Part shown: positions 5,983 through 47,825 of the stretch, piece by piece | Position numbering within the stretch: the stretch's first letter is position 1 | Layout of the letters: the number at the start of each line of letters is the position of its first letter | DNA from: Candidatus Latescibacterota bacterium | GTDB lineage: Bacteria > Latescibacterota > UBA2968 | Assembly: GCA_965205975.1 (NCBI GenBank) | Contig: OZ242195.1 | Coordinates: 3,030,656-3,094,655, forward strand | Length of the DNA: 64,000 nt | Direction: 5' to 3' | Translations under genes and position numbers: made by a program | The notes under the pieces: generated by a model | The model's input: the letters and a program-made list of their open reading frames with translations, nothing else | Databases searched by the model: none | What the model was told of the DNA's origin: nothing

Positions 5983-8784
5983 CTATTCACTCAATTCGCG
6001 CAACAAATCGCGCGCCTGCACATTGCCCGGCTCTCGCGCAATCACGCGCCGCAAAACCGCAACCGCGCTATCTCGCTGTCCACTTATGGCATAAGCCTGT
6101 CCCATAAACAACTCCAATCCCTGCGCTTCTGGCTCCAGTATCCACGCTTGCCGATATACAGACAGCGCACCTTCTATATCGCCGCGCTCCTGTAAAACCG
6201 TACCCAGCACAGTAAGCGCGGGCACATAAAAAGGATCGACAATCAACGCATCCAGCAAAAGGGATTCCGCAGCCTCTAACTCGCCCAAATCAGCGCGAAT
6301 AAGCCCCTGCATCGCATACACATCAGCGCGGTTGGCATGGTATTTCACCGCAACCTCAAAATGCGGCAACGCATCTGCGAGCGCACCCCGCACATAAACG
6401 CGGTGCCCGGCGTCAAAAGCCGAATCCGATTTTGCTTTCCCCGCTTCTCGCGCCTGCCTGCCCAATCCAAACGATCCCGTACCCGCATCCTCCATTTCCA
6501 ACGCCCTGTGGTATGCCGCGCGCGCCAATGCCCAATCGCCCGACAGCGCGTGTGCAGTCCCTCTTTCCACCCAATCGCCTATCGGCATCTCATCCCACTC
6601 ATAATCATCGCGCACCTCGCCATCCCCAGCCGAAAACGCCAATAACGCGAGTTGTCGAATCGCTGGCACGTATCCCGGCGCAACAGCAAGTGCGCGGCGA
6701 TAGGCTTCAATAGCACCTGCGCGATCCCCACTGCCCCACCGCGCATCCCCCACAGCCGTCTGCAAAACCGGCGAACCATCGCGCACATCGTCAAAAGCCG
6801 TATCTGCATAGCGCCCATGGTGCAACAGCAATGCACCTGTGCGCAACCGGGAAGTCAAATCGCTCTTCCCCTTCAGCAAACCCCTCATCTCCTCAAAACG
6901 CTCCTGTTTTCGCGCCAATCGCGCCAGATCCGCCGCGGTCTCCGGGTGCAGGGGATCTAACTTCGCAACAATCTCAAATTCCCGCCTCGCATCTTCAAAA
7001 AGCCCCTGCGCTTCATAGACCTGCCCCAAACTCTCGTGAAAACCCGGATCATCGCCCTGCACGCCATACACCACATCGCGATGCTCCTCAAGTGCCCTGC
7101 GAAACGCATCGCCCACAGCAGAACCATCCGGCAAATAGCCAATATCCATCAGCGCGAACGGTGCTTGCACCCGCACAATACGCGCCGAATCGGACAACGC
7201 ATTCAAAAGCGCGGGCAAACCGCGCACATCGCCCAAACGCCCCAGCGAAATCGCCGCCTTCATCCGCACCATCGCATGTGAGTCATCCATCGCCTCAACC
7301 AGCGCCGGCACCACACGCGCATCCCCCAAACCGCCCAGCAAAGACGCAGCCGCTGCGCGCCACACCGCACTCTCACCCCCGTCGTTTACCAACCGCGCCA
7401 ACGGCACCACACCACTGCCCTTTTGCCCATTGGCAATCGCTGTTGTACGCGCCACAATTTCGTCCTGATAATCGCCATACCACTGCTTTGCCCACGACGA
7501 AGCCCATTGTGCGGACTTATCGCCGTGACACTGATTGCACGCATTGGGCACGCCATTGACCACCGTATTTTCCGGTGCAGGAGATGCAATGCGATGATCC
7601 GTCAGATTCTCTCCCGTCACATAGTGATACGGCATGTGACACTGCACGCATTGATTGCCCACACTCCCCGCGCGGTGATGCCCATGCGCGACCGGATCGG
7701 CTGCAATGTCTTCATGACACGTCTCGCACAACCCCACGCCATTCCGATCCGCCACCAGATCGACATCGCGCGCTGTTCCGTGCGCGTCGTGGCATGTCGT
7801 ACACGTCAACTCGCCCTGAATATAACACGCACTCATCAAATGCAATGCTGCGGGATACAAATAAACCCTGGGCTGTCCATCGGGATAAAAAATCGCCTCG
7901 TCATCTGGCAACACAAGAGAATAATAATCGTAAAAGTTCTCACCTGGCAAATACCCGGTCGCCACAATTTCCTTGGCCGCATGACACTGGGCACACACCT
8001 CGACAGACCGTTCCTTATCCAGCGACCGCAATAACAGCAAATGCAACGGGGCATTGACCTGTCCGCGCGTCTCATCGTGTTTGCCCGACGGCCCATGGCA
8101 CGCCTCGCAATCAATACTCAGACTACCCACAGTCGTGCGATAAGACTGGGACGCCACATCGTAATGCTTTTGCACCCGGCTGGCATGGCAATCAAAACAG
8201 TGAAAATTCCAGGTGCGTCCCGCATTCGTCCAATAATAATAATCTTCTCTCGCCAAAGGCCGCGACTGAGCCACCACACCTCCTTCTTGAGCATCGACCC
8301 AATCATTTGTCGCGCCATCGTGATACAGAGGCAACACCTGCCAACGCCCATTGGGAAAAGCCGTCAAATAAGCCTGGTGCTGCCGCTTGCCAATCGCGTA
8401 ATCCACGCGGTATGCTCCAACGCGCCCTTCCTCATCTTCAGTCTCCATATAATACGCACCATCCTTGCGAAACATACGCGAACGCACACCGCCATACACA
8501 TGGGACACATTGTCAAAATCGCCCACAATCGTCGAATCACTCGGCACAGTCATCGCGACACTGTGCAAACTCTGCCGCCACTCGGCATACTTGTCGGTAT
8601 GGCAGATCGCGCACCGTTCCAACCCGGTAAACCCCGGCTCAGAAGCGCGCACCAAATTGGGCACCTCGCGCTCCCGGCTGCACGACGCAAACACCAGAAT
8701 CACCCATAAAAAGCAACCACAGATGAACACCGATAAACACCGATAAAAAGCAAGATACAAGATGTGAAATTTTCTGCACCGCAT
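5983..8784 (-). CDS. Multiheme (8x CxxCH) c-type cytochrome lipoprotein fused to PBS-lyase HEAT-like repeats and a C-terminal TPR array.
   Basis: Lipobox LVFASC. CxxCH motifs CAICH, CFDCH, CEACH, CAQCH, CTTCH, CETCH, CVQCH and CNQCH. Then HEAT-like AMVRMKAAISLGRLGDVRGLPALLNALSD repeats, then multiple TPR-like repeats to the C-terminus. 933 aa. Confidence 0.65.
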   Translation of the reverse strand: MRCRKFHILYLAFYRCLSVFICGCFLWVILVFASCSREREVPNLVRASEPGFTGLERCAICHTDKYAEWRQSLHSVAMTVPSDSTIVGDFDNVSHVYGGVRSRMFRKDGAYYMETEDEEGRVGAYRVDYAIGKRQHQAYLTAFPNGRWQVLPLYHDGATNDWVDAQEGGVVAQSRPLAREDYYYWTNAGRTWNFHCFDCHASRVQKHYDVASQSYRTTVGSLSIDCEACHGPSGKHDETRGQVNAPLHLLLLRSLDKERSVEVCAQCHAAKEIVATGYLPGENFYDYYSLVLPDDEAIFYPDGQPRVYLYPAALHLMSACYIQGELTCTTCHDAHGTARDVDLVADRNGVGLCETCHEDIAADPVAHGHHRAGSVGNQCVQCHMPYHYVTGENLTDHRIASPAPENTVVNGVPNACNQCHGDKSAQWASSWAKQWYGDYQDEIVARTTAIANGQKGSGVVPLARLVNDGGESAVWRAAAASLLGGLGDARVVPALVEAMDDSHAMVRMKAAISLGRLGDVRGLPALLNALSDSARIVRVQAPFALMDIGYLPDGSAVGDAFRRALEEHRDVVYGVQGDDPGFHESLGQVYEAQGLFEDARREFEIVAKLDPLHPETAADLARLARKQERFEEMRGLLKGKSDLTSRLRTGALLLHHGRYADTAFDDVRDGSPVLQTAVGDARWGSGDRAGAIEAYRRALAVAPGYVPAIRQLALLAFSAGDGEVRDDYEWDEMPIGDWVERGTAHALSGDWALARAAYHRALEMEDAGTGSFGLGRQAREAGKAKSDSAFDAGHRVYVRGALADALPHFEVAVKYHANRADVYAMQGLIRADLGELEAAESLLLDALIVDPFYVPALTVLGTVLQERGDIEGALSVYRQAWILEPEAQGLELFMGQAYAISGQRDSAVAVLRRVIAREPGNVQARDLLRELSE

Positions 8785-8796: not shown

Positions 8797-9648
8797 CTAA
8801 CGCGCCTGTACCTCTCCCCGCGCACACCGAAACCCAATATGGGCAAATATTTCGATATCAAAATCGTCGCGCGCCAGAGCTCGCTCTTCCATAATTAAAA
8901 CCGTACTCCGCACAAATACGCGGATACTGGGTTGTGGTGAAAACCAACTCCCACCGCGAAGCGTGCGATCTGGCCCATCTTCCATACCCGAATTTTGCAA
9001 ATTCACCGGATTGTGCCTGGGGCTATTTGCGTAATACGTATGCTGGTATTCATCCACCGTCCACTCCCACACATTGCCCGCCATATCCATCGCGCCATAA
9101 GGACTTGCACCATCTGGATAGCTGCCCACAGGCATGGGACCCGAACTGAAATTGAAATTACACAGCGATTCACTCGCAGGCTCATTGCCCCAGGGAAACA
9201 CGCGCCCATCCGTACCTGCAGCGGCCAACTCCCACTGCGCTTCACTCGGCAATTGCAAACCCGCCCACAGGCAATAATCCCGCGCCTGAGACCACAAAAC
9301 CCCCACCGCTGGCTGATCGGCTTGATCAAACCCCTCTAATCGAAAGTACTGCGGCTCTTCACTTCCCGTAGCCTCCGCATAAGCCAAATACTGCGCGTTG
9401 GTCACCTCGTATTTATCGATATAAAATGCGTCGAGCATCACCTCGTGTGGCGGGCGCTCATTGGAGGGACCATCGCTCGACCCCATCGTAAAAGTGCTGG
9501 CCGGAACAAAAACCTGCACATGCTCCGTACCCGCAGGCGTGGTCACAACAGATTCTTCAACCACATACTCTGGATCGGTGGGCTTGCCACAGGCCATGGC
9601 CAATGCAATACCCAAAACGCCGAACCGATAAATCGTTTTTGGTATCAT
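8797..9648 (-). CDS. Formylglycine-generating enzyme family protein (SUMF1/FGE-sulfatase domain), lipoprotein.
   Basis: Lipobox LAMACG. FGE-domain signatures MGSSDGPSNERPPHEVMLDAFYIDKYEVTNAQYLAY, GNVWEWT and RGGSWFS. Confidence 0.7.
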   Translation of the reverse strand: MIPKTIYRFGVLGIALAMACGKPTDPEYVVEESVVTTPAGTEHVQVFVPASTFTMGSSDGPSNERPPHEVMLDAFYIDKYEVTNAQYLAYAEATGSEEPQYFRLEGFDQADQPAVGVLWSQARDYCLWAGLQLPSEAQWELAAAGTDGRVFPWGNEPASESLCNFNFSSGPMPVGSYPDGASPYGAMDMAGNVWEWTVDEYQHTYYANSPRHNPVNLQNSGMEDGPDRTLRGGSWFSPQPSIRVFVRSTVLIMEERALARDDFDIEIFAHIGFRCARGEVQAR

Positions 9649-9712: not shown

Positions 9713-9766
9713 TTCGTCTATTCTCTATTCGTCTATTCGTCTATTCGTCTATTCGTCTATTCGTCC
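9713..9766. repeat. Tandem octamer repeat (TTCGTCTA / CGAATAGA unit, about 6 copies) in the FGE-YcaO intergenic region.
   Basis: Directly visible as ggttcgtctattctctattcgtctattcgtctattcgtctattcgtcc. Same family as the repeats at 26229-26262 and 33379-33402. Confidence 0.9.
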
Positions 9767-9768: not shown

Positions 9769-10779
9769 TCACATCCAAACAATATAATTGCCCGAATCCA
9801 CCATAATGCGATGCACATACGTCTCGATCATCGCGTGGTCCCGCTCGTGTTCTGTAGTCTCTAAGCTAAAAGGCCGCAACACCGGAATCTGCATCTCTGG
9901 ATCTGTCCAATCTTGCACATAAACCGAAGATTTCATACCACTCAACACCACCTGAATATCGGTTATCAAATCATCCGTAAAATGATTGGGCAAATCCCAC
10001 AGTGCAATCTCGGCATTAAAAGTCTGCAAATCAGATACAAACCGCGTCTTGTGACTCTGAACAGTCTCATTAAACGCCCGCTGCAACGCGATGCGCCCAT
10101 CCAAATGCGTACACGTACGCACCAGAGGCCCCAAATCTTTGGGACACACCACCGCGTGAACCGTCGTCACCTTCTCATTCTCCCCCGGCACGGCCACAGC
10201 CAGCATCTTTTCTGCAACGCGAGGAGCAAAATCCGTCAAATTTGGATCGATAAACTGCCGGTGTTCCAATCCCGGCCAATAAAAATGCCTCCCCACATCC
10301 AGGTGTTCGTGCATCTCCAGCAAACCGTGAAACACGCACTCCAGCACAGTATTGCCCGCCGAAACGCCATTTGCCGAATCATTCAAATGCGGCACATCCG
10401 AAGCCTTCATATCGGTCGGCACAAGTTCGACATCAGAAGTCAACTCATAAATCGGAGTCTCTCGCCCGCTCGCCAGCGCGTCAAAAAACGAAATGCGCTC
10501 GACCGCCTCTGCCATCGCCCCCGCCAGCACCTGCTGTTTGGAAAGCCCTTTGCCCATCGTGCGAAGCGCGATACCCTCCATCAGCGGCCCTTCGTATTTG
10601 CGAAACAGCGCCGACTGCACGTAATCCGTATAACAATCGGCAATCCACACCGTATCGTAAAACCGCCGCGCGCGCGTTTGAAACCGACACTTCTTGGACA
10701 GCGCCTCCCCGAACCGCTCAATAGTCTCTTCAAACGGAACCGTGCGATCGGCAATAACGATATGATGCGACTCACTCAT
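9769..10779 (-). CDS. YcaO-domain protein (ATP-dependent peptide backbone-modifying / cyclodehydratase superfamily), short standalone form.
   Basis: Contains the canonical YcaO nucleotide-binding signature ...RTMGKGLSKQQVLAGAMAEAVERISFFDA... (GKG...A.AEA.ER). 336 aa. Overlaps the upstream TPR gene by 4 nt (ATGA coupling). Confidence 0.6.
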   Translation of the reverse strand: MSESHHIVIADRTVPFEETIERFGEALSKKCRFQTRARRFYDTVWIADCYTDYVQSALFRKYEGPLMEGIALRTMGKGLSKQQVLAGAMAEAVERISFFDALASGRETPIYELTSDVELVPTDMKASDVPHLNDSANGVSAGNTVLECVFHGLLEMHEHLDVGRHFYWPGLEHRQFIDPNLTDFAPRVAEKMLAVAVPGENEKVTTVHAVVCPKDLGPLVRTCTHLDGRIALQRAFNETVQSHKTRFVSDLQTFNAEIALWDLPNHFTDDLITDIQVVLSGMKSSVYVQDWTDPEMQIPVLRPFSLETTEHERDHAMIETYVHRIMVDSGNYIVWM

Positions 10780-11999
10780 TGCGCCCGTGCCCGATTCATA
10801 TCTTCAACCGCCTCGGCAAACCGTCCCATTTGCCGAAACGTCTCCGCGCGGAGTTCTCGTGCCCATCCATTTTCGGGATCGATATCCAACGCCCGCGTAA
10901 AATCTGAAACCGCTGCCTCATACTGCCCCAGCATCCGTCGGGACTCCCCGCGATTTGCCCAAACCCACGCATCACCATCATCCATCATCACCGCCCGATC
11001 AAAATCGATCAGCGACGCCTCGGGATCATTTTCCATCCGCAACGCGACGCCGCGCCCCATAAGCGCCCACAGATGATCGGGAAAATTCTCCAGCACCCGT
11101 GTAAAATCGCGTATTGCTTCGGCACTTCGCCCCAATTGCCGCAACATATCACCCCGCGCGGCCCACAAATCCGGATCACCAGGCGCGACGACGAGTGCGC
11201 GGTCAAAATCCAAAAGCGCATCCTCCAATTGACCGATCTCCCGCAGCACCTCGCCCCGCCCGATCAACGCGCCCAGATGATCGGGCATAGCCTTCAAAGC
11301 CTCCCCAAACATCTCCATCGCAGCCCCAGCTTCATCAGCCTGTCGATAGACCTCCGCCCGTCCGGCAAACGCATCCGGATGCCCATTGCCCACCGCAATC
11401 GCCCGATCAAAATCGCCCGCCGCCGCATCGAAATGCCCCAACTGCATCAGCACATGCCCGCGGCTGATCAGCGCGCCAAAATAATCTGCATCCAACGCCA
11501 AAACCCGATTGAGATCCCCCAGTGCCTCCTCAAACCGCCCCATCTCGCGCAGGGTCTCCCCCCGGCTGGCAAGTGCCTGCGTATTGTCCGGATCGAGCGC
11601 AACAGCCTTTCCAAAGCTATCTATCGCCGCATCAAAATGCCCCATCAACCCGCAGGCAATCGCGCGATTACTCCACACCCATGGATCGTCTGGCGCCAGA
11701 GCGATTGCGCGGTCAAAATCCGCAATCGCCGCATCAAATTGTCCCAATTGTCCATAAGTAATCCCGCGATGCACAAACACAACGGCATCGCTATCACACG
11801 CCGCAATCGCCGCATCAAAACCCGCAACAGCCGCTTTCAGATCGCCACCATCGCGGTGCGCGATGGCGCGCTGAACCACAGCTTCAAAGTCATTTATAGA
11901 TAGAGGCATAAAAGAAAAAGTGGGAACCGTCAGACACCCAAAACGTAAACACAATGTAGATAAACCAAACCCCAAAATCAAGCGCAAACCCCGTGACAT
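10776..11999 (-). CDS. TPR-repeat protein, translationally coupled to the YcaO gene.
   Basis: About 9 tandem 34-aa TPR units (A..G.....G.....A...F..A). N-terminal hydrophobic segment. Confidence 0.65.
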   Translation of the reverse strand: MSRGLRLILGFGLSTLCLRFGCLTVPTFSFMPLSINDFEAVVQRAIAHRDGGDLKAAVAGFDAAIAACDSDAVVFVHRGITYGQLGQFDAAIADFDRAIALAPDDPWVWSNRAIACGLMGHFDAAIDSFGKAVALDPDNTQALASRGETLREMGRFEEALGDLNRVLALDADYFGALISRGHVLMQLGHFDAAAGDFDRAIAVGNGHPDAFAGRAEVYRQADEAGAAMEMFGEALKAMPDHLGALIGRGEVLREIGQLEDALLDFDRALVVAPGDPDLWAARGDMLRQLGRSAEAIRDFTRVLENFPDHLWALMGRGVALRMENDPEASLIDFDRAVMMDDGDAWVWANRGESRRMLGQYEAAVSDFTRALDIDPENGWARELRAETFRQMGRFAEAVEDMNRARAQ

Positions 12000-12113: not shown

Positions 12114-13415
12114 ATGAAACATCTGTGTATTTTTTCTATCGCCCTATTTCTGTGCTTATGCACAACAGCTTTTGCCCAGCCCAATGTGGGTGAAAAAGTA
12201 GGTGAATTTCAGCTCCAGGCCCTCGACGGCAGATCTTACGGCGTCAGTCATTCGGCCAATACCGTCTCCGTCCTGTTTTTTGTAGGCTACAACTGAGGAA
12301 CTTGCATAGGGGCGGGTCCCGCCTTTGAAAGAGATGTTCACCAACGGAACAAAGACACAGCCGGCGTACAAGTTCTCACACTCGACAGATACAATGGCAA
12401 CCGCGCACAGGCGCAATCCTATCTGACACAAGCCAGAGTAACGACGCCCATGCTCACCAATGCCTCTGGCGTCTCCGCAACTCTCGGCACTCGCAACGAA
12501 GATATCCTGGTCGTTGACCAGGGAGGTATCCTACGCCTCAGAACCACGGCAATCGCCACCGGCTCTCATCACCTGATCAACGCGCAAATCGATGCACTAC
12601 TCAACAAAACGCCTGTTATTTCTCTATTCCCAAACGAGCTTTACTTTGGCAGAACCCTTGTCGTGGGGCAATCCAAAACCGTAGAGTTTAAGATCGAAAA
12701 CACCGGTGCAGGTCCCCTCGAAATCACCGGATACTCGGCTCCCGAAGGCATCACAATGGAGCCATCCACCCTGACCATAGCGCCCGGCGAAAGCAAAACC
12801 GTACAAATCACCCTGACGCCAACACAGGCCGGCACATTATCGGGTAAAATCACCCTCCAGCACGGCGAACAAAGTGTTGGCACACTGGAAGTCCCTTTTC
12901 TCGACCTCACCATCGAAGCGCCCCAACTCCCGGTCATTTCACTGATTCAGGAAAACTTGAGCCTGGGTGAAATCGAAGTGGGCAAAGACGTCACCACAAC
13001 ATTCACCATCACAAATACTGGCTCGGGTCCACTCACCATCACAGACATCCAATCCAACATCGCGGGCATTGCATTTTCAGAAACCCAATTAACAGTGCCA
13101 CCCGGTCAATCTCAAGACATCACCGTGACTTTCAGTCCGCCAGCCGAAGGGCCTATCACCGGCACCATCGACGTATTTTCAGACGACCCTGAAAAAGCCT
13201 CAATCAGTCTGACCATCACCGGATCGGCCATCTTCATCCCCGCTGATCCACGCACCGACTTCGACGGTTCGCGCACCATTAACTTCGCGGACTTCCTCTT
13301 GTTCGTAAGTGCCTTTGGCACGACCGATGCAACCTTCGATCTCAACGGGTCCGGCACTGTTGACTTTCCCGACTTTCTCATATTCGTCCAGAACTTTGGG
13401 AAAACAATCAACTAA
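12114..13415 (+). CDS. Candidate selenoprotein. Secreted TlpA/redoxin-like thiol-disulfide oxidoreductase with U-G-T-C in place of CxxC, fused to ASH/Ig-like repeats and a C-terminal dockerin.
   Basis: ATG at 12114 with a GGAGGA RBS. Signal peptide MKHLCIFSIALFLCLCTTAFAQ. Redoxin fold ...VLFFVGYN-TGA(12294-12296)-GTCIGAGPAFERDVHQRNKDTAGVQVLTLDRY.... The frame stays open through the single TGA into the listed ORF 12450..13415. A GC hairpin GGCGG-GUC-CCGCC lies about 14 nt downstream of the TGA. Three GxGPLxI Ig-like repeats. Two dockerin Ca-binding repeats DFDGSRTINFADFLLF / DLNGSGTVDFPDFLIF. Confidence 0.55.
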
Positions 13416-13477: not shown

Positions 13478-14179
13478 ATGTCCCACCGCCAAACGCTCAT
13501 CAACGCATTCAAACGCATCCTCGAAATATCGGATCACGACCATCTCTATTTGCCCTTTCAACGCGACAGCAAATTGCGGGCAAAACACTTTCCCGGCGCA
13601 GGGTCTAAAATCGGGCGAAAAAAACTCATCGACGCATATCTCCTTGAATTTGGCGACACAAACCCCGACGAAAAATTGCTCCAACACGCCACCTATCCCT
13701 GGATTCACGGGTACGACGCCAGCCTCACGCATATTCTCGATGACCTCCGAAAACACGAAAAAAAAGCACCCGCCGAACTTTCTACGGACCGAAGACGCGC
13801 ACTCGAAAAGAAATTTACCCGCACGGGTGCCGAAGAAATCTCTGCCTTCTGGAGCGTATATGCCGCCGCCGACAACAGCTATCGCAAAAGCGTCATAGAA
13901 ATGCTAGCCCGCGTCAAACCACCCGAAACGGCCCCCCCGACCGTTCAGCCTACACAAAAGCCCACAACTCGCGCCCCCTCTCAAATAGAACCCACCACAC
14001 AGTCGGGATATGCTTTGATGGGCGCGCTTATCTTCTTTGTCCCCACCTTTATATTTACTATAATACAATATTGGCGACTCCCAAATGAAAGCCACTATAT
14101 CGCCTTATCAATCGCCGGATTTTTTGGGATAGTCACACTCATCTTCCTCATCGACTACTTGCGTAAACGCAACACATGA
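13478..14179 (+). CDS. Hypothetical membrane protein (two C-terminal TM helices).
   Basis: 233-aa ORF with a Pro/Thr-rich linker and C-terminal hydrophobic helices ALMGALIFFVPTFIFTII and IALSIAGFFGIVTLIFLI. No recognisable family. Confidence 0.4.
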   Translation: MSHRQTLINAFKRILEISDHDHLYLPFQRDSKLRAKHFPGAGSKIGRKKLIDAYLLEFGDTNPDEKLLQHATYPWIHGYDASLTHILDDLRKHEKKAPAELSTDRRRALEKKFTRTGAEEISAFWSVYAAADNSYRKSVIEMLARVKPPETAPPTVQPTQKPTTRAPSQIEPTTQSGYALMGALIFFVPTFIFTIIQYWRLPNESHYIALSIAGFFGIVTLIFLIDYLRKRNT

Positions 14180-14261
14180 CCACAATGAACAAAGGCACCT
14201 ACCCCCGGCCCCTTCCTGAGAGGAAGGGGAGAAAACCTACCATCCCTCGCTTCTTGCCCTT

Positions 14262-14292
14262 CATCTGCGTCCATCTGCGTCATCTGCGGATA
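14262..14292. repeat. Tandem 9/10-mer repeat (CATCTGCGT)n ending in CATCTGCGGATA, immediately 5' of the ATG at 14293.
   Basis: tcatctgcgtccatctgcgtcatctgcggata. The same element recurs at 29235-29270, 36130-36172 and 63014-63052. Confidence 0.9.
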
Positions 14293-16071
14293 ATGATCTC
14301 CACCGTCCTCTTTCTCACCCTCCCGCTTCGCTCCTGGGCAGTTCCCCTTCAGATCGGCGACAGCCTCAATGATTTTGCCCTTGCCGACCTCAACGGCTCG
14401 TCCGTTACCCTCAGTGATTTATCTCAGAACCGCGCACTCGTCATCATCTTCAGTTCCGTCGTCTGCCCCGCCTCGCTAAAATACGACATACACCGCACAC
14501 AAATACACGAACAATATGCCCCCAGAGGTGTACACCTGATATCTGTAAATGCCAATTTTAACGAAACCGACAAAGACATCAAAGAACACTACGCCCAAAA
14601 CCCCGTACCCTTCGCTGTCCTGCGCGACCCGCACAACAAACTCGCCGATCATCTCGGCGCAACACATACCCCCCATGCCTTTCTCTTTGACGCCCAACGC
14701 CGCCTGCGCTACAAGGGCGAAATCGACAACGGCTGGGGCGTACCCGAAGACACGACCTCGCGCGGTTTATGGGACGCCCTCGATGCACTGCTCGCCAACC
14801 GCGAAATTATCAACACCAACCTGCCCAGTTTTGGCTGTGAAATCAGACGCACACCCCGGCCAACAACTGTGGCGAACACCTCTACCCCAACATTTTATCG
14901 CGACATCTTGCCCCTGCTCCAAAACCGCTGCCAGAACTGCCATCGCCCTGGCGGTATCGGTCGCGTACCCTTTTTCGACTACACAGAAGTACTCGCCTGG
15001 GCCTATCAGATGCGCGACTCCATCGAAGCCCGCATCATGCCGCCCTGGAAAGCGCGCCCAGAATACGGCGACTTCAAAAATTCCCGCAGACTCACAGACG
15101 CCGAAATACACACCTTCGCGCAATGGGTCAACAGCGGCCTGCCAGAGGGCGATCCCTCCGACCAGCCCGAACCTCTCACATTTGCCAAAAGCTGGACCCT
15201 GGGCACGCCCGATCTGATCCTCGAACCCGAAGCACCCTATTCACTCGAAGCCGTGGGGCGCGATGAATACCGCTGCTTTGTCTTGCCCACAAAACAGGAC
15301 ACAGGCAACTACGTATCGGCTATTGAAGTCCTGCCCGGAGAACGCGAAGTCGTCCACCACGTCAGCGTGTACATAGACATCTCTGGCAAAGCGCGCCTGC
15401 AACAGAAAAACGCATCATCGCCGGGCTACCCTTGCTTTGGCGGAATTGGCGTGCCCATCTACGAATCCCTGGGCGGTTGGGCACCCGGCAACACCCCCTT
15501 TGTCCTTCCAGATGGCACAGGCCGCGATTTACCGCCCAACAGCGACATCATACTTCAGATCCACTATCACAAAATTGGTCGCGCCGTAAAAGATCACTCC
15601 CGACTGGGAATCTACTTTGCCAAAAAACCCGTCCAGAAACAGCTCAGAGAAGAAGCCATCAACAGCCGTTTGCTCTTCATTCCGCCCAACATCAAACGAC
15701 ACAGAGTAACCGGAGCAATCACCATCACCCGCGACCAGCACCTGCTCGGCATCTTGCCGCACATGCACCTGCTCGGCACAGAAATGAAAATAACCGCAAC
15801 CTATCCCGACGGCACACAACACCCCTTAATATGGGTTAAACCCTATGACTTCAACTGGCAAGAAACCTATGTGTACAAAACACCCGTCGCACTCCCGCGC
15901 GGTACCCGCATCGCGCTCGAAGCCTTTTACGACAACTCTGCCGACAACCCCCGAAATCCCAACAATCCACCCAGGCTGGTGCGATGGGGCGAAAAATCAA
16001 CCGATGAAATGTGTACCGCATTTCTCTATGTCACGCACGATGATGAAAATTTAGAAACAGGTAAGAAATGA
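14293..16071 (+). CDS. Secreted three-part fusion: AhpC/TSA-redoxin-like domain, c-type cytochrome (CxxCH, PSCyt1-like) domain, and PHM/DBH-like copper type II monooxygenase domain.
   Basis: Start chosen at MISTVLFLTLPLRSWA (signal peptide). The listed ORF start 14176 would read through the tandem repeat. Redoxin-like LNDFALADLNGSSVTLSDL...VIIFSSVVCPAS. Heme site CQNCHRPGG...IMPPW. Copper-site-like motifs VHHVSVY (HH), IHYH, LPHMHLLGTEMK (HxH) and STDEMC (Met ligand), arranged as in the PHM CuH/CuM sites. Confidence 0.55.
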   Translation: MISTVLFLTLPLRSWAVPLQIGDSLNDFALADLNGSSVTLSDLSQNRALVIIFSSVVCPASLKYDIHRTQIHEQYAPRGVHLISVNANFNETDKDIKEHYAQNPVPFAVLRDPHNKLADHLGATHTPHAFLFDAQRRLRYKGEIDNGWGVPEDTTSRGLWDALDALLANREIINTNLPSFGCEIRRTPRPTTVANTSTPTFYRDILPLLQNRCQNCHRPGGIGRVPFFDYTEVLAWAYQMRDSIEARIMPPWKARPEYGDFKNSRRLTDAEIHTFAQWVNSGLPEGDPSDQPEPLTFAKSWTLGTPDLILEPEAPYSLEAVGRDEYRCFVLPTKQDTGNYVSAIEVLPGEREVVHHVSVYIDISGKARLQQKNASSPGYPCFGGIGVPIYESLGGWAPGNTPFVLPDGTGRDLPPNSDIILQIHYHKIGRAVKDHSRLGIYFAKKPVQKQLREEAINSRLLFIPPNIKRHRVTGAITITRDQHLLGILPHMHLLGTEMKITATYPDGTQHPLIWVKPYDFNWQETYVYKTPVALPRGTRIALEAFYDNSADNPRNPNNPPRLVRWGEKSTDEMCTAFLYVTHDDENLETGKK

Positions 16072-37548: not shown

Positions 37549-37619
37549 ATGAACTTGACCTGTTTTAGTTGATAACAGAATTAAACCCACTGGTCGAGTC
37601 CAAAAAGTTCTGTAAAATA

Positions 37620-38878
37620 GTAGCTCCGTGAAATAGGGGTCAGTGATTTTGTTTTAGGTACGTCATGTCCAGATAGCGTCTGCCTGTGATCCACTCATCA
37701 GACCATTCCATACACAACGCGCCGATGAGACGTTCACAAGCCTTCTGGTTGGGGAAGATCTGCACCACATCGGCACGTCTTTTGATCTCCCGGTTGAGTC
37801 TCTCCAACAGGTTGGTGGTACGAATGCGTCTTTGGTGCTGTTGTGGAAAGTGGAAGCAGGCCAGAGCATGGATAATATCCTGGTCTATCTTGTCCACGAG
37901 CTTGGGCAGTATCTCTTCATAGGTGTCCATCATAGCAGATAGGCGCGCTTGTGCAGTGGCCTGATCGGGGGCATTGAAAACGTCTTTGAGTGCTTGGGCA
38001 ACTTCGCGTTGATACTTAGGCGGTGTAATGCCTTTGACATTTCTGTGAAAATGGGTTTGACAATGCTGCCAAGAAGCCCCTTGAAAGTGTCGTTTGATGG
38101 CGTTTTGTAAGCCTTCGTGGTGGTCAGAGATAACCAGTTGCACACCCTTTAACCCACGCTTTTTAAGGTCTTTAAACAAATCCCCATACGTGGCTTCTGT
38201 CTCGGTGTGCGCCACGTCAATGGCCAAAATGTCGCGGTGCCCACTCTCTGCGATCCCAGAAACGATTAAGACGGCCTCAGAAGCGACCTGTCCTCGACTA
38301 CGGATGTGGAGATAGGTCGCATCAATGATCAGATAAGGGTATCCTTGCTCAAGGGAACGCCCCCGCCAGGCTTTAATATCTGCATCCAGGTCTTGACAAA
38401 GCTGTGAGACTTGGGACTTTGAAAAAGAGGTGCCACACAAGGCTTCTGTGATCTTTGTCACTTTGCGTGTGGAGACCCCTTGCAAATACGCCTCTTGAAG
38501 GGCAAGAATCAGTGCTTTTTCACTGCGTTGAAACCGTGAGAATAACGCACTGCTAAATCGTCCTTCCCGATCTTGAGGCACGCGCAGTTCGATACGGCCT
38601 ACGCGCGTCTTGAGGACACGAGGCTTATATCCGTTACGGTAGCCTGTCCGCTCGCCAGTTCTTTCATAAGGTTCTGCTTGTAAACACGACGTGATCTCGG
38701 CTTCCATAAACTGTTGCAGGAAGCGGGTGATGGCCTGATTGAGAAAATCAGGGTCATTCAAAAGTGCAAATTGCTCTGGCGCGGCAATTTTTATATCTTT
38801 GGGGTAAGTCATCGTAGCCTCCAAGGTTAGGGTTTATATTACTACTCACCCCTATTTTAAGATTTTTCTCGGAGCTAC
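37620..38878 (-). mobile_element. IS256-family insertion sequence (about 1.26 kb) with imperfect terminal inverted repeats.
   Basis: Left end GTAGCTCCGTGAAATAGGGGTCAG (37620-). Right end, as reverse complement, GTAGCTCCGAGAAAAATCTTAAAATAGGGGTGAG (-38878). A single mutator-type transposase ORF lies inside. No matching 8-bp target duplication is visible. Confidence 0.75.
37640..38824 (-). CDS. IS256-family (mutator-type) transposase.
   Basis: 394 aa. The N-terminal LNDPDFLNQAITRFLQQFMEAEITSCLQAEPYERT...YRNGYKPRVLKTRVGRIELRVPQDR and central DATYLHIR...VLIVSGI are characteristic of the IS256 transposase family. Confidence 0.85.
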   Translation of the reverse strand: MEATMTYPKDIKIAAPEQFALLNDPDFLNQAITRFLQQFMEAEITSCLQAEPYERTGERTGYRNGYKPRVLKTRVGRIELRVPQDREGRFSSALFSRFQRSEKALILALQEAYLQGVSTRKVTKITEALCGTSFSKSQVSQLCQDLDADIKAWRGRSLEQGYPYLIIDATYLHIRSRGQVASEAVLIVSGIAESGHRDILAIDVAHTETEATYGDLFKDLKKRGLKGVQLVISDHHEGLQNAIKRHFQGASWQHCQTHFHRNVKGITPPKYQREVAQALKDVFNAPDQATAQARLSAMMDTYEEILPKLVDKIDQDIIHALACFHFPQQHQRRIRTTNLLERLNREIKRRADVVQIFPNQKACERLIGALCMEWSDEWITGRRYLDMTYLKQNH

Positions 38879-39363
38879 GGTGACTTTTTTTCCTTTTTAC
38901 AGAAATTTAAGGACGCTATCTCCACTTCGTTGATCATGCGATAAACCACATCTCCAGATTTGTTGCGATCATAAAAACTCAATGGCAACTGGATCAAGTG
39001 GTCGAAAAGATGGCTCCTTATATCCAGCATCATGCGATTGTTTATCCAAGCAAATAGATAGTTTGAGCAAAAACCAATGATGATATTGCCGACTGTAACG
39101 CCCAGGAGCAGAAGCAAAATAAATATCAACAGCTCATAATCTTCATTTGGAAAAACATCATCAATGATAATTTTCATGATATAGGGAAAAGCCAACGAGC
39201 TAACAGTCCCCAGGATCATGAGAACAAAAACAATGCTTTGGTGTATCCAATAAGGTTTCAGAAATTTCAAGAAATGATAAAAGACATGTCCCTGCTTAGA
39301 GAGATTGAAAATGGCTGATATGACTGGTTGTTTGTTCTTCATATTCACCCGTGATGTAAACAA
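38875..39363 (-). pseudogene. Truncated ABC exporter gene. Only the N-terminal transmembrane domain fragment remains, and the reading frame runs into the IS256 right end.
   Basis: MKNKQPVISAIFNLSKQGHVFYHFLKFLKPYWIHQSIVFVLMILGTVSSLAFPYIMKIIIDDV...LPLSFYDRNKSGDVVYRMINEVE is the first about 150 aa of a type-I ABC exporter TMD. The TAG stop is formed by the IS terminal sequence ...GGAGCTAC. No ATPase domain follows. Confidence 0.7.
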
Positions 39364-39384
39364 CTCAAAGTGTGCGTATGCATA

Positions 39385-39572
39385 AGACGCTCTTTGCTCG
39401 ATAAGCTCAAGTAAACCATTCTCTCAAGCTCATATTCCCAAATGCTTGAGCTTTGAACTGTTGCCTGCCCGCGCCGTCGCACGGCAGGCAGGTCTGCCGC
39501 CAATATTCGACTTGCCAGGGTCTGTCGGCGGCTTTTTATATTTAGAAATCCGGACAAATAGATAACCGCGTA
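39385..39572. repeat. About 190-bp structured repeat, copy 1 of 3 (other copies at 43785-43993 and a shorter one at 51245-51354).
   Basis: Near-identical sequence cttgata(g/a)gctcaagtaaa(a)ccattctctca(a/g)gctca(t/c)attcccaaatgcttgagctttgaactg + ttgcctgcccgcg(c/t)cgtcgcacggcaggcagg + tctgccgccaatattcgacttgccagggtctgtcggcggcttttt. It contains GCTCAAG/CTTGAGC pairing segments, a long GC hairpin and a terminal hairpin followed by a T-run. Confidence 0.85.
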
Positions 39573-42074
39573 TCAATCCTCCCGCAGGGCATCTATTGGG
39601 CTTGCAGAGGCGACCTTCAGCGCGTGTACGAAGCCACCTAACAAGGGAAGTAGAATGCCTGCGAAAATCGCCGCTAAAATCGTCCCAACCCCAAATTGAA
39701 AACGGTAAGCAAATATCGAAAGCCACTCATCCATAAAGAAATAAGACAGCGGTAGCGCGATAACGGCGGCTACAAACCCGGGCACTGCGTAGTTTAGCAC
39801 GATCCCACTGGCTATTTTGGATGGCACAGCACCCATGACCCGTCGAATGGCAATTTCCTTTCGCCTGCGCGCCACTGCCAGAGAGATCATGCCCAGGGCA
39901 CCCATTGACGCGATGAGAACAGCGCACAAAGCCGCCCCTGAGACGATTTTGCTCCAACTGATTTCTCTGGCATAAAATTTTTGTCTTTCATCTTCTATAT
40001 AAGAAAATCTCAAGGGGTGCTCTGTTTTAAGGTCTTCCCATACGCTTGTGAGATACGTACCAAAGGCTTCGGCACTGCCCTCTCGAATCCGAATCAATAT
40101 CTCTGCCGAGAAGGCACGTTGCAAAGTTGCATCCGTGCCTACGGTGATGATCGTCGGTGAAACCTTATGGCTCAAGTCTCTAACGTGAAAATCCTTAACG
40201 ACACCCACGATGCGACCACTGACATCACTGCCAAACACGCGCGATCTTAACTTTTCTTCTGCTGGACTGATCACCTCTCCGATAGGGTCTGACAACCGCA
40301 GATGCTTTTGAAAGACTTCATTTACGATCACATCGCCAGGCATCGGATTGGGATACAATGATCTCCCCTGCAAGAGTTGCAACCCAACCGTCTCGAGAAA
40401 AGGCCCCTTCACTTGATAATAGGTGACCTCATCTATGAGATTACCATGGCTATCTTTTATCAGGACTGAGTTTGACCAACCGAACGGCAAGTTCGTCCGT
40501 GCAGAGGATGCCACGAGCGGAGACGCAGATAAAGACGCTTGCAGGCGCCCCATCTCATTTTCGGTCAACCTACCCGTTTCGAGCCTGACCAGGTTCGCAG
40601 GTTCAAAGCCCGGCTCTGCCGTAAGAACAAAAAAAGTCTGTTCAAAGATGATGATCGTGCAAAAGACAAACACCAATGTCACACCCGATTGAACAGCCAT
40701 CAATACCTTCAAAAAGGGACCAGACCTGACTACCTTTGCTGTTTTGCTCAAAACGATGAGGGCAGATACAGACGACATAAAGGTCGCCGGATAAATGGCT
40801 GTGCCCAGACCAATCAGACAGGCAAGCGAAAGAATAATGGTCGCGGTCTGAACGGGATCTACTAAAGACGTAAAGGGGGTCCGCAAAACACCTTCAAGAG
40901 GACTTGAAGCCAACTCTGCAACCATCAATCCAATAACACAAGCCAACAGGCTGTATCCAAAGCATTCGACCAATAGCTGGTATCTGAGTTGCCGCTGGTT
41001 CGCACCAAAAATTTGCCTGATGCCCAATTCTTTGGTGCGTGAATTGAACCGTGCCACGTAGAGCAACACGTAATTCAGACACGCGACAGACAGAATTAGG
41101 ACACTGATACCGCTGAGAATATATCCATACAAAGGGTTGGTGCCAGGACGCACACCTTGGCTGCCCCCCCCCGACCCACTATGACTATGATGGTGCAACT
41201 CTGTGATGGGTTGAAGTTTGGCCCTTAAGGTCTCCAAATCCCAGAACGGGTTAGCGGGGTAATTTTGGATGATCCGTGTGAGCTTTCTCTCCACTTCCTT
41301 TATGTTGGCTTCGTCTGCCAGACGTATATAATGTGTGGATGTAAAATCCCAGCCCCGTCCACCTTCTTGCTTGTCGAGAAAGGTTGACGACATACTCAAG
41401 GGCAACAGAATCTCAAAATCCAGACTTGAATTTAGGGGAGGCGTTTCCACAATGCCCTCTATTTTTACAGGGACCACTGCTTTTTTTGTCGGGTTAAAAG
41501 ATAAAGACAATTTCGGAGGTGGTTGTATCCATAACACTTGACCTACTAAATTGCCAATATTGTTGGAAAGCGTCTGAGCGAATGCGCGTGTTATTGCGAC
41601 TTGCCCTGGACGTGAGAGGAATGTACCATGAATAAGCGGGAATGAAAAAATCTCCACGAAACTCCTATCTACCAACACGACCTTATCTATATCTCTCAGA
41701 AAATCTTTGTGAGTACCTACGTGCCAAATTCTCATATCAGGATGGGAAAAGGCACCAAGTATACGGGTTGTGGCCTCGATCTCAGGAATCTCGGCAGACA
41801 TCGCCGATGCCAATGAAACTGGAAAACTGGTAGGCTCAGCTCCTGTGCCCGCCAGAGGACCCATACCTATTTGTCTGAACTTTGCCTTCCCAGTAATGCG
41901 GTATATGCGATGATGGTCTTTGTGGAACTTATCAAAGCTCCAATCATACAGGACGTAAAGCACGCAAAGATAGGTGCAGGCAATCCCTATCCCCAAACCC
42001 AGCAGGTTAATGGCGGCATACGTTTTATATTTGAGAGCATTGCGAAACCAGGTTCGGAAATAATTGAAAAGCAT
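39573..42074 (-). CDS. FtsX-like ABC-transporter permease with a MacB-like periplasmic domain, duplicated 8-TM type (paralog 2).
   Basis: 833 aa. Starts directly with TM1 MLFNYFRTWFRNALKYKTYAAINLLGLGIGIAC. There are two FtsX-type 4-TM bundles, each preceded by a large extracytoplasmic domain. About 70-75% identical to 43994..46474. Confidence 0.8.
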   Translation of the reverse strand: MLFNYFRTWFRNALKYKTYAAINLLGLGIGIACTYLCVLYVLYDWSFDKFHKDHHRIYRITGKAKFRQIGMGPLAGTGAEPTSFPVSLASAMSAEIPEIEATTRILGAFSHPDMRIWHVGTHKDFLRDIDKVVLVDRSFVEIFSFPLIHGTFLSRPGQVAITRAFAQTLSNNIGNLVGQVLWIQPPPKLSLSFNPTKKAVVPVKIEGIVETPPLNSSLDFEILLPLSMSSTFLDKQEGGRGWDFTSTHYIRLADEANIKEVERKLTRIIQNYPANPFWDLETLRAKLQPITELHHHSHSGSGGGSQGVRPGTNPLYGYILSGISVLILSVACLNYVLLYVARFNSRTKELGIRQIFGANQRQLRYQLLVECFGYSLLACVIGLMVAELASSPLEGVLRTPFTSLVDPVQTATIILSLACLIGLGTAIYPATFMSSVSALIVLSKTAKVVRSGPFLKVLMAVQSGVTLVFVFCTIIIFEQTFFVLTAEPGFEPANLVRLETGRLTENEMGRLQASLSASPLVASSARTNLPFGWSNSVLIKDSHGNLIDEVTYYQVKGPFLETVGLQLLQGRSLYPNPMPGDVIVNEVFQKHLRLSDPIGEVISPAEEKLRSRVFGSDVSGRIVGVVKDFHVRDLSHKVSPTIITVGTDATLQRAFSAEILIRIREGSAEAFGTYLTSVWEDLKTEHPLRFSYIEDERQKFYAREISWSKIVSGAALCAVLIASMGALGMISLAVARRRKEIAIRRVMGAVPSKIASGIVLNYAVPGFVAAVIALPLSYFFMDEWLSIFAYRFQFGVGTILAAIFAGILLPLLGGFVHALKVASASPIDALRED

Positions 42075-42124
42075 TGGTTACCCTTGGCAATCAAGAGACG
42101 CTTGATCTCAGCTAACTTTCGCCA

Positions 42125-43219: not shown

Positions 43220-43556
43220 GAGGATAATCCTTTCTTATCGTTGGCTCGGTGCCCCCAGTCTGTTTACCGAGAACACCAAGCCAATCTTGAGCCTATCAAG
43301 CTCGGTTGCACACTTTTTTCTATGATTAAGATCAGCAATTAAGAGTACACCTAAAGCTCACTCAGAAGAAAGAAGCCAGTCTAAAGTTCATAGAAAAGAA
43401 AAATGATCGAATTCACTTGAGATAGAACTTTTGCCCAGAGATGTGTGGGTATCTGTCAATCCAGGCGACTTCGATTCTTTTTATGAATTAGCAATACCTT
43501 AGACTGAATGATGGGTAGCTAAAGATGCTCTCAAGCATCAGAGATTCCAGCGCTAA

Positions 43557-43766: not shown

Positions 43767-43784
43767 AGTATCACCTCCTTTCCT

Positions 43785-46474: not shown

Positions 46475-46524
46475 TGGTTCTCCTCAGCAATTAGAGGATG
46501 CTTGAGCACACCTCACTTTTACCA

Positions 46525-47652: not shown

Positions 47653-47825
47653 GACTTATCACCCTTTCCCTATTGTAAAATCAGTGCTCCTGTAATATTT
47701 TGAGAGCACTGAGTCAATTTTGAGCCTATCAAGCTTGATTGCACACTTTTATTTTTTACTGAACATACTTCATTATGGCAATAAAAAAGATAAAATAGAA
47801 GACAGATCTCTTTAAAAGCCAGCCC

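What the first reader, a model, noticed from the sequence alone, without database searches (positions are those of the whole stretch)
9769..11999. Orphan short YcaO translationally coupled to a TPR protein, with no E1-like, TfuA or dehydrogenase partner
The 336-aa protein carries the diagnostic YcaO ATP-binding signature (GKG...AMAEAVERISF), but it is shorter than typical azoline-forming or TfuA-associated YcaOs. Its only operon partner is a 9-repeat TPR protein (ATGA start/stop overlap).

No precursor-like small ORF is evident within 500 bp. It sits between an FGE gene and the divergently transcribed Sec-TlpA gene. Its substrate is therefore unknown. The substrate could be a protein (thioamidation or amidine formation on a larger protein) and need not be a RiPP peptide.
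Basis: partly seen in the sequence, partly recalled or inferred. Interest (0 to 1): 0.55.

Follow-up and report, generated by a model that had tools for sequence, protein, structure and literature searches.

The report
Lone YcaO enzyme with TPR partner
A small, strongly conserved ATP-dependent peptide-backbone-modifying enzyme (YcaO) found only in Latescibacterota always sits directly behind a dedicated TPR scaffold protein inside a conserved cluster of exported redox proteins, with no known helper and no precursor peptide, so it probably modifies a still-unidentified protein.

Summary
ORF 9769-10779(-) is a real YcaO: Pfam scores 56 bits against a cut-off of 26, and the AlphaFold model matches solved YcaO structures at TM about 0.62-0.65. 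It overlaps an upstream all-TPR gene by ATGA.

Three corrections:
- The TPR protein is probably 377 aa (start at 11909) with 10-11 repeats, not 407 aa with 9.
- The protein is a bare YcaO domain and is only modestly short.
- The TPR gene is not the only conserved neighbour.

In about 30 related loci, nearly all labelled Latescibacterota (YcaO identity 57-99%), one core recurs: [Sec-TlpA-ASH][233-aa membrane protein]<->[TPR][YcaO][FGE-like][multihaem cytochrome-HEAT-TPR]. No TfuA, E1/ThiF or dehydrogenase was found, and no conserved small ORF.

The clade is isolated: it forms a single 50%-identity cluster among 1.84 billion representatives. It is under strong purifying selection (dN/dS about 0.08). 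It keeps all the Mg/ATP glutamates, has Q195->His and R203->His, and lacks the PxPxP motif.

Best reading: an active, TfuA-independent YcaO that modifies a protein, most likely by thioamidation, with the TPR protein acting in trans like the TPR domain fused to E. coli YcaO. The substrate and the chemistry are inferred, not shown. This is a new variant of a known kind and is of moderate interest.

The parts
9769..10779 (-). Bare-domain YcaO, 336 aa, cytoplasmic (no signal peptide). It founds an isolated clade seen almost only in Latescibacterota.
   Evidence: Pfam PF02624 at 56.3 bits against 25.7. AF2 plus Foldseek match YcaO structures only. ATP/Mg residues mapped onto E. coli YcaO. dN/dS 0.05-0.13. 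27 clusters at 90% identity and one cluster at 50% identity.
10776..11909 (-). All-TPR protein, 377 aa from the conserved start (the ORF is open up to 11999). It has 10-11 repeats, is acidic (pI 4.55) and has no signal peptide. It is the proposed docking or scaffold partner.
   Evidence: TPR_1 at 203 bits. Orthologues at 38-75% identity start at M31. It sits immediately upstream of the YcaO gene in every locus that extends that far.
10776..10779 (-). ATGA stop/start overlap between the TPR and YcaO genes (translational coupling).
   Evidence: Read directly. The same 4-bp overlap occurs in L001, L007 and L009. The genes are 54-90 bp apart in the distant clade.
8797..9648 (-). FGE-sulfatase-fold protein, 283 aa, with an N-terminal hydrophobic segment containing Cys (lipoprotein-like). 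It lacks the catalytic cysteine pair of true formylglycine-generating enzymes.
   Evidence: PF03781 at 165 bits. The segment RGG[SG]W.S......R contains no Cys in any orthologue (the FGE motif itself is from my own knowledge). Syntenic downstream of the YcaO gene.
5983..8784 (-). Exported multihaem cytochrome c fused to HEAT and TPR repeats, 933 aa. Last gene of the probable operon.
   Evidence: Paired_CXXCH_1, Cytochrome_C7, HEAT_2 and TPR hits. Syntenic in nearly all loci, and it overlaps the YcaO gene by 4 bp in L004.
12114..13415 (+). Divergently transcribed exported TlpA-like thioredoxin with an in-frame TGA at the redox motif (U-G-T-C), fused to two ASH/DUF1573 Ig-like domains.
   Evidence: Translation. 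Pfam hits. The TGA is conserved at the same position in 21 sequences. Syntenic.
13478..14179 (+). Orphan 233-aa protein: an all-helical cytoplasmic domain of about 145 aa, a Pro-rich linker and a two-helix membrane hairpin. It has the same narrow taxonomic range as the YcaO. Candidate anchor or substrate.
   Evidence: No Pfam hit. 60 clusters; every named hit is a Latescibacterota, Gemmatimonadota or unclassified MAG. AF2 pLDDT 83.5. No PDB fold match. Always within the cluster, and adjacent to the TPR gene in the distant clade.

Best explanation
The protein is a catalytically competent, minimal YcaO. It uses ATP and Mg to O-phosphorylate a backbone amide of a genome-encoded protein rather than a RiPP precursor. 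The activated amide is then most likely attacked by a sulfide equivalent to give a thioamide, without TfuA, as in M. kandleri and E. coli YcaO.

The co-translated 377-aa TPR protein supplies in trans what the fused TPR domain supplies in E. coli YcaO, namely oligomerisation and/or substrate docking. It stands in for the E1-like/RRE partner of the azoline-forming enzymes.

The pair is part of a conserved envelope-redox gene cluster seen almost only in Latescibacterota. One of the cluster's products is the most likely substrate: the membrane protein p233, the FGE-like protein, the cytochrome-HEAT-TPR protein, or the Sec-TlpA protein before it is exported.

Shown: YcaO fold and family, retention of the ATP/Mg ligands, purifying selection, obligate TPR adjacency and coupling, conserved cluster, absence of known partners and of a precursor.

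Inferred: enzymatic activity, physical YcaO-TPR interaction, protein substrate, thioamide product.
For: - Fold and family.
- Active site, mapped onto E. coli YcaO: E75/E78->E91/E94, S184->S140, N187->N143, E191->E147, E199/E202->E155/E158, R286/E290->R234/E238. All are invariant in 25 sequences.
- Q195->H151 is also His in the thioamide-forming M. jannaschii enzyme.
- Best structural match is the M. kandleri YcaO. Best NCBIfam partial match is TIGR03266, the McrA thioamidation family.
- No PxPxP motif. The C-terminus is a different conserved motif, Y-[IV]-x-W-[EDN]. PxPxP is associated with azoline formation (PMC12338566).
- The YcaO is the slowest-evolving gene in the cluster: dN/dS about 0.08, and 60% identity where its neighbours are at 33-45%. 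This is the pattern argued for YcaOs that act on a fixed protein substrate (PMC13063428).
- The TPR gene lies immediately upstream in all loci. It overlaps by 4 bp in the window, L001, L007 and L009.
- Gene order within the cluster is rearranged between clades but the gene set is kept.
- No conserved small ORF. No TfuA, ThiF or nitroreductase.
- Precedents: E. coli YcaO carries a 150-residue TPR domain and thioamidates uL16 although E. coli encodes no TfuA homologue (PMC13063428).
Against: - There is no direct evidence of activity, of a YcaO-TPR complex, of a substrate or of a product.
- R203->His159 and S71->Gly87 alter the canonical ATP motif. Both are invariant in the clade.
- All NCBIfam YcaO subfamily models score far below their cut-offs, so kinship with the thioamidases is weak: 39 against 365 bits.
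- TPR377 shows no detectable homology to the E. coli YcaO TPR domain (hhalign probability 0.5%).
- No sulfur-delivery gene is conserved in the core. Cysteine desulfurase, DsrC and a CCG protein lie 5-8 kb upstream only in the distant clade. The window has only a rhodanese about 14 kb away.
- Most neighbours are exported, whereas the YcaO is cytoplasmic.
- Synteny within one phylum could partly reflect shared ancestry.
Confidence: 0.45

Rival explanations
1. It is a standalone RiPP YcaO. It forms an azoline, amidine or macroamidine, or cleaves a peptide, on a short precursor that is encoded elsewhere in the genome or in a small ORF that is too divergent to detect. The TPR protein serves as the leader-binding module.
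For: Standalone and divergent YcaOs with new chemistries keep being found in RiPP clusters (PMC12338566; 10.1101/2020.05.04.076059 was listed but not read). LynD, TruD and MusD are significant structural matches. A separate rSAM-SPASM/PqqD RiPP-like cluster exists in the same window.
Against: No small ORF outside the large genes is conserved in six loci spanning 60-99% YcaO identity. There is no PxPxP motif, E1/RRE partner, dehydrogenase, protease or exporter in the conserved core. The YcaO evolves very slowly and sits in a fixed chromosomal context, which is unlike RiPP enzymes. The rSAM cluster lies in a compositionally foreign island 43 kb away.
Confidence: 0.15
2. It is a YcaO-fold ATPase acting on a non-peptide substrate or in a regulatory role. 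One model is oxyanion or small-molecule activation, as hypothesised for the Desulfovibrio YcaO-TPR protein DVU2210. It could then support the redox or selenium/sulfur chemistry of the neighbouring exported proteins.
For: DVU2210, a YcaO-TPR fusion, affects molybdate sensitivity through its ATP motif (PMC7774982). The neighbours are redox proteins, including a selenoprotein. Two invariant His residues replace Q195 and R203 in the nucleotide motif.
Against: The DVU2210 mechanism is itself only a hypothesis. Every biochemically characterised YcaO acts on a peptide or protein amide. Residues matching the peptide-modifying enzymes are retained.
Confidence: 0.1
3. It is a catalytically impaired YcaO-fold scaffold. 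The protein has lost normal ATP use (R203->H, S71->G) and acts only as a structural subunit with the TPR protein.
For: Two canonical motif positions are substituted. Scores against all curated YcaO subfamily models are low.
Against: All four Mg-binding glutamates, N187, S184, E191 and the R286/E290 equivalents are invariant across 57-99% identity. dN/dS is about 0.08. The substitutions are to His, are invariant, and Q195->His also occurs in the active M. jannaschii enzyme.
Confidence: 0.1
4. The adjacency reflects inherited gene order only. TPR377 and the redox neighbours are functionally unrelated to the YcaO, which acts on a distant housekeeping target such as a ribosomal protein.
For: All loci come from one phylum, and TPR proteins are very common in these genomes: four TPR-containing ORFs lie within 12 kb. 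E. coli YcaO modifies uL16, which is encoded far from ycaO (PMC13063428).
Against: The genes overlap by 4 bp, which suggests translational coupling. The gene set persists even though synonymous sites are saturated (dS not computable) and FGE, the cytochrome gene and p233 have been reordered. p233 shows the same narrow phyletic range as the YcaO.
Confidence: 0.15

Closest known systems
M. kandleri / M. jannaschii YcaO (McrA thioglycine-forming; PDB 6ci7, 6cib, 6pe3, 6peu)
   Same: Single-domain YcaO of similar size acting on a protein. Best structural match (TMq 0.62-0.65). Best NCBIfam partial hit, TIGR03266. His at the Q195 position, as in the M. jannaschii enzyme. From my own knowledge, the M. 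kandleri enzyme works without TfuA.
   Different: About 16-18% identity. TIGR03266 scores 39 against 365 bits. The host is bacterial and has no Mcr. R203->His. The pairing with a TPR partner is obligate. The gene context differs.
E. coli YcaO (uL16 thioamidase; PDB 4q84-4q86; NF040716)
   Same: A YcaO associated with a TPR module. It acts on a folded protein with no TfuA, no precursor peptide and slow evolution (PMC13063428). The Mg/ATP glutamates align.
   Different: In E. coli the TPR is a fused C-terminal domain of about 150 residues. Here it is a separate 377-aa canonical TPR solenoid with no detectable homology. NF040716 scores 16 against 700 bits. pI is 5.2 against 4.4. The gene context differs.
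DVU2210, the YcaO-TPR fusion of Desulfovibrio vulgaris (PMC7774982)
   Same: YcaO domain plus TPR repeats, function unknown, not in a RiPP cluster.
   Different: It is a fusion protein with the canonical ...ELVER motif. It was not recovered as a close relative.
Azoline-forming cyclodehydratases (LynD/TruD, SagD/TOMM; TIGR03604)
   Same: YcaO fold and ATP-dependent amide activation.
   Different: No E1-like/RRE domain or partner, no PxPxP motif, no dehydrogenase and no precursor. TIGR03604 scores 16.5 against 219 bits.

Membership tests
YcaO superfamily (PF02624) | Profile match above the curated threshold | tested here: met
   56.3 bits against a gathering score of 25.7, in two stretches.
YcaO superfamily (PF02624) | YcaO fold | tested here: met
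   AF2 pLDDT 85. The 38 PDB matches at E<=0.001 are all YcaO enzymes, TMq up to 0.65.
YcaO superfamily (PF02624) | ATP/Mg motif Sx6-7Ex3Qx3ExxER, plus E75/E78 (E. coli numbering; Dunbar 2014 as quoted in PMC7774982) | tested here: inconclusive
   S140, E147, E155, E158, E91 and E94 are present and invariant. Q195->H151 and R203->H159 are invariant His, and S71->G87. All the acidic ligands are kept; two positions are substituted.
Azoline-forming YcaO cyclodehydratase (TOMM/SagD, TIGR03604) | Subfamily HMM above cut-off | tested here: not met
   16.5 against 219 bits.
Azoline-forming YcaO cyclodehydratase (TOMM/SagD, TIGR03604) | C-terminal PxPxP motif | tested here: not met
   The C-terminus is ...YV..IM.....YI.W[E/D/N] with no proline, in all 25 sequences.
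Azoline-forming YcaO cyclodehydratase (TOMM/SagD, TIGR03604) | E1-like or Ocin-ThiF-like partner (fused or adjacent) and an adjacent precursor peptide | tested here: not met
   None in the window or within +-10 kb in five Pfam-annotated loci. No conserved small ORF.
TfuA-associated thioamide-forming YcaO (TIGR03266 type) | Equivalog HMM above cut-off | tested here: not met
   39.4 against 365 bits. It is nevertheless the best-scoring subfamily model.
TfuA-associated thioamide-forming YcaO (TIGR03266 type) | Adjacent tfuA gene | tested here: not met
   No TfuA domain in the window or in the annotated related loci. The rest of the genome could not be searched.
E. coli-type YcaO (uL16 thioamidase, NF040716) | Equivalog HMM above cut-off, and a fused C-terminal TPR domain | tested here: not met
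   16.3 against 700 bits. The protein ends after the YcaO domain. The separate TPR protein has no homology to the E. coli domain.
E. coli-type YcaO (uL16 thioamidase, NF040716) | Thioamidation of a protein substrate | not testable with these tools
   Needs mass spectrometry of co-expressed candidates.
Amidine-forming standalone YcaOs (bottromycin/streptamidine type) | Membership of those clades and an adjacent precursor | not tested
   No curated model for these clades was identified in the libraries searched. No precursor was found.

The most novel reading that the evidence does not exclude
TPR377 and YcaO form a two-component protein-modifying system and would be a third case of YcaO acting on a full-length protein, after McrA and uL16. 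It would install a backbone thioamide, or another amide-derived modification, on a component of a Latescibacterota envelope-redox module: p233, the FGE-like protein, the multihaem cytochrome-HEAT-TPR protein, or the exported Sec-TlpA. The modification would be made in the cytoplasm before export or membrane insertion.
Probability: 0.3. Interest if true: 0.75.

Novelty: new variant of a known kind. Interest (0 to 1): 0.5.

Why it matters
YcaO enzymes are best known from RiPP natural-product pathways. Only two protein substrates are established, McrA and, since 2026, ribosomal protein uL16, and the authors of the uL16 study state that further protein substrates remain undiscovered.

This clade is a clean candidate for a third:
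- It is strongly conserved and carries no accessory genes.
- It lacks every known partner and any precursor peptide.
- It has a discrete, co-translated TPR partner.
- Its conserved gene cluster gives a short list of candidate substrates.

The system is small enough to reconstitute: two soluble proteins plus four to five candidates. Success would define a new partner type for YcaO enzymes and might reveal a backbone modification in exported redox proteins or selenoproteins.

Tried and rejected
- Small precursor ORFs. An all-against-all comparison of 20-130-aa ORFs from six loci found only shadow ORFs inside the large genes and the N-terminal fragment of the Sec-interrupted TlpA gene. I rejected these as precursors.
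- Nearest out-of-clade YcaOs (P0032, P0033). Their contigs are 1.4 and 3.1 kb, so their context is uninformative.
- p233. It has no Pfam family and no PDB fold match, so its function is unresolved. The idea that a basic p233 complements the acidic TPR and YcaO was dropped, because the pI of its N-terminal domain ranges from 6.1 to 9.9 among orthologues.
- Homology between TPR377 and the E. coli YcaO TPR domain: none.
- Rfam scan of the window: no hits. The promoter and terminator scan was at background level.
- Literature. No paper held in the library describes this clade or a separate TPR partner for a YcaO. The Chem. Rev. 2017 YcaO review is not held.
- Spatial clustering of the invariant cysteines C49, C148, C212 and C223 could not be checked, because the tool does not return model coordinates.
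- I ran no further search on TPR377, since generic TPR hits would swamp the result.
Full report
**Observation**

The two ORFs are as described. The YcaO-like ORF is 9769-10779(-), 336 aa. The upstream ORF is 10776-11999(-), 407 aa. They overlap as ATGA at 10776-10779.

The 336-aa protein passes Pfam YcaO (PF02624) at 56.3 bits against a gathering score of 25.7. The upstream protein is TPR throughout. All curated NCBIfam YcaO subfamily models score far below their cut-offs: TIGR03266 39 against 365, TIGR00702 37 against 76, NF040716 16 against 700, TIGR03604 16.5 against 219.

An AlphaFold2 model built on 25 family members is confident (pLDDT 85, pTM 0.86). Its 38 significant PDB matches are all YcaO enzymes. 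In order of rank they are M. kandleri YcaO (6ci7/6cib, E about 3e-12, TMq 0.62-0.65), E. coli YcaO, LynD, M. jannaschii YcaO, MusD and TruD. The YcaO assignment is therefore secure.

**Anatomy of the enzyme**

Profile alignments to E. coli YcaO give this residue map:

| E. coli YcaO | This protein |
|---|---|
| G60-K61-G62 | G76-K77-G78 |
| S71 | G87 |
| E75 / E78 / R79 | E91 / E94 / R95 |
| S184 | S140 |
| N187 | N143 |
| E191 | E147 |
| Q195 | H151 |
| E199 / E202 | E155 / E158 |
| R203 | H159 |
| R286 / E290 | R234 / E238 |

All of these positions are invariant in the 25-sequence alignment. Relative to the published ATP motif Sx6-7Ex3Qx3ExxER (Dunbar 2014, as quoted in PMC7774982), every acidic ligand is retained. 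Two positions are invariant histidines. The Q195 position is also His in the thioamide-forming M. jannaschii enzyme.

The C-terminus has no PxPxP motif, which is associated with azoline-forming YcaOs (PMC12338566). It carries a different conserved ending, YV..IM.....Y[IV].W[E/D/N].

Four cysteines (C49, C148, C212, C223) are invariant. Their spatial relation could not be examined.

At 336 aa the protein is essentially a bare YcaO domain. The Pfam model has 325 positions. The M. jannaschii enzyme is 385 aa, and the resolved M. kandleri chains in the PDB are 360-365 residues. Other YcaOs of about 350 aa exist.

**How isolated and how constrained the clade is**

The word-indexed search found only 27 clusters at 90% identity. 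They are 57-94% identical to the query and 271-374 aa long. The few named ones are Latescibacteria/-ota MAGs.

An exhaustive HMM search of 1.84 billion representatives found one full-length 50%-identity cluster plus fragments. The next hit scored only 68 bits, and only 201 proteins reached E<=0.001.

A scan of GTDB species genomes returned 25 loci. Twenty-three are labelled Latescibacterota or Latescibacteria, one Gemmatimonadetes and one 'uncultured bacterium'. Many come from complete chromosomes of 4.7-6.5 Mb. L030 (OZ220741.1) is 99% identical to the window protein.

Nei-Gojobori dN/dS against the window gene is 0.05-0.13. The YcaO is the slowest-evolving gene of its neighbourhood: dN is about 0.33 in the distant clade, against 0.5-0.68 for its neighbours.

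**The partner**

TPR orthologues are 38-75% identical. All start at the residue equivalent to M31 of the window ORF (ATG at 11909), which gives 377-379 aa; one has an extra 34-residue repeat and is 411 aa. The hydrophobic 30-residue extension in the window ORF is not conserved (gene calls). The protein is therefore most likely cytoplasmic. It is acidic (pI 4.4-5.3) and consists of 10 repeats plus a capping helix.

The TPR gene lies immediately upstream of the YcaO gene in every locus that reaches that far. It overlaps the YcaO gene by 4 bp in the window, L001, L007 and L009. In the most distant clade the gap is 54-90 bp.

**The neighbourhood**

A tblastn synteny table over about 35 loci shows a recurrent core. 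On one strand lie a TlpA-like thioredoxin fused to ASH/DUF1573 domains and a 233-aa orphan membrane protein (p233). Diverging from them are TPR377, YcaO, an FGE-sulfatase-fold protein and a multihaem cytochrome c-HEAT-TPR protein.

In the distant clade (YcaO 60-63% identical, synonymous sites saturated) the FGE-like and cytochrome genes have swapped order. There p233 sits directly next to the TPR gene, and in L007 it is part of a longer protein with a CxxCxxCC domain. The gene set has therefore survived rearrangement.

The gaps around the YcaO gene are short:
- YcaO to FGE-like: about 15-18 bp in close relatives and 5 bp in L007.
- YcaO to cytochrome-HEAT-TPR: a 4-bp overlap in L004.
- In the window the gap is 120 bp, inflated by a 53-bp array of an 8-mer.

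The operon is therefore longer than TPR plus YcaO.

Notes on individual neighbours:
- **FGE-like protein.** It lacks the cysteine pair of true formylglycine-generating enzymes in all orthologues (the motif is from my own knowledge).
- **TlpA gene.** It has an in-frame TGA at its redox motif (U-G-T-C), conserved in 21 sequences.
- **p233.** It has no Pfam family and the same narrow taxonomic range as the YcaO. Its model is a confident all-helical N-terminal domain plus a membrane hairpin, with no PDB fold match.

**What is absent**

Every ORF of 150 aa or more in the 64-kb window was scanned against Pfam. None is TfuA, ThiF/E1-like or a nitroreductase. The called genes within +-10 kb in five related loci show none either.

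An all-against-all comparison of 20-130-aa ORFs across six loci found no conserved small ORF outside the large genes. The recurrent 58-67-aa ORFs are the N-terminal part of the TGA-interrupted TlpA gene. There are no Rfam hits.

**Interpretation**

The most economical reading is an active, TfuA-independent YcaO that modifies a protein, with a TPR partner acting in trans. The closest functional precedent is E. coli YcaO. It carries a 150-residue TPR domain that mediates dimerisation and possibly substrate binding. It thioamidates the folded protein uL16 although E. coli encodes no TfuA homologue, and it belongs to a slowly evolving group, unlike RiPP YcaOs (PMC13063428).

TPR377 is an analogue, not a homologue, of that domain (hhalign probability 0.5%).

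Several observations favour thioamidation:
- The best structural match is the M. kandleri enzyme.
- The best subfamily profile hit is TIGR03266.
- His at the Q195 position is shared with the M. jannaschii enzyme.
- PxPxP, an E1 partner and a dehydrogenase are all missing.

Each of these is weak, and no sulfur-delivery gene is part of the conserved core. The substrate is unknown. The cluster products are the obvious candidates.

The rivals cannot be excluded (see Rival explanations). They are a RiPP precursor encoded elsewhere, a non-peptide or regulatory role as hypothesised for the YcaO-TPR fusion DVU2210 (PMC7774982), a catalytically impaired scaffold, and adjacency without function.

**Novelty and score**

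I found no description of this clade, or of a discrete TPR partner for a YcaO, in the held literature. It is a new variant of a known kind: a known enzyme superfamily and a known theme (YcaO plus TPR, protein substrate), but with a new partner architecture, a new conserved context and a divergent nucleotide motif.

Interest is moderate (0.5). The finding is not a surprise to a specialist. It is a well-defined, experimentally tractable candidate for a third protein-directed YcaO.

Noticed in passing
window 4000-37000 and 54000-64000, against 37600-54000: Strand compositional asymmetry is extreme. GC skew on the + strand is -0.2 to -0.35 overall and -0.35 to -0.64 at third codon positions, whichever strand the gene is on. 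This points to a very strong strand-specific, presumably replication-linked, mutational bias. The skew vanishes and G+C falls from about 0.53 to 0.41-0.48 across 37.6-54 kb. That stretch begins at a Mutator-family transposase (37640-38824), so it is probably a recently acquired island.
   Followed up: partly
window 12114-13415 (+); TGA at 12294-12296: An exported TlpA-like thioredoxin has an in-frame TGA in its redox motif (VLFFVGYN-U-GTC). It reads through into two ASH/DUF1573 Ig-like domains and a C-terminal region with a weak EF-hand match. The TGA is conserved at the same position in 21 sequences. It is a candidate exported selenoprotein. No SECIS element was sought.
   Followed up: partly
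window 9713-9765: A tandem array of 6.8 copies of an 8-mer (TTCGTCTA on the + strand) lies between the YcaO stop and the FGE-like start. Close relatives have only about 15-18 bp there, so the array looks like a window-specific expansion.
   Followed up: partly
window 39573-55594 (-): The low-GC island holds two tandem pairs of a MacB/FtsX-type permease with a 6-bladed beta-propeller (DUF5128) protein, an AhpC/TSA protein, an S8 peptidase fused to DUF1611, and a radical-SAM/SPASM enzyme with an N-terminal PqqD (RRE) domain at 54155-55594. This looks like a separate RiPP-type cluster. It is unlikely to be linked to the YcaO.
   Followed up: no
window 14176-16071 (+): A 631-aa exported fusion combines an AhpC/TSA-redoxin domain, a CxxCH motif (CQNCH) and both halves of a copper type II ascorbate-dependent monooxygenase-like fold. 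A 531-aa TPR protein and a MIP channel follow it. It is syntenic with the YcaO cluster only in the closer clades.
   Followed up: no
L002 1-4595 and L007 200-5521: In the distant clade a different gene set lies 5-8 kb upstream of the cluster: a CCG/4Fe-4S protein (HdrD/DsrK-like), a class-V aminotransferase (cysteine desulfurase-like), DsrC, a thioredoxin/AhpC protein and DUF6029. It is a possible sulfur-relay set, but it is not part of the conserved core.
   Followed up: no
L007 6969-8354 (-): In one lineage the p233 homologue is the C-terminal part of a 461-aa protein that also has a weak CxxCxxCC (PF03692) metal-chelating domain hit.
   Followed up: no
window 22793-25103 and 31850-33403 (-): Two sulfatase genes and a rhodanese-domain gene lie 13-24 kb from the FGE-like gene. 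The FGE-like protein lacks the catalytic cysteines, so it is unlikely to be their maturase.
   Followed up: no
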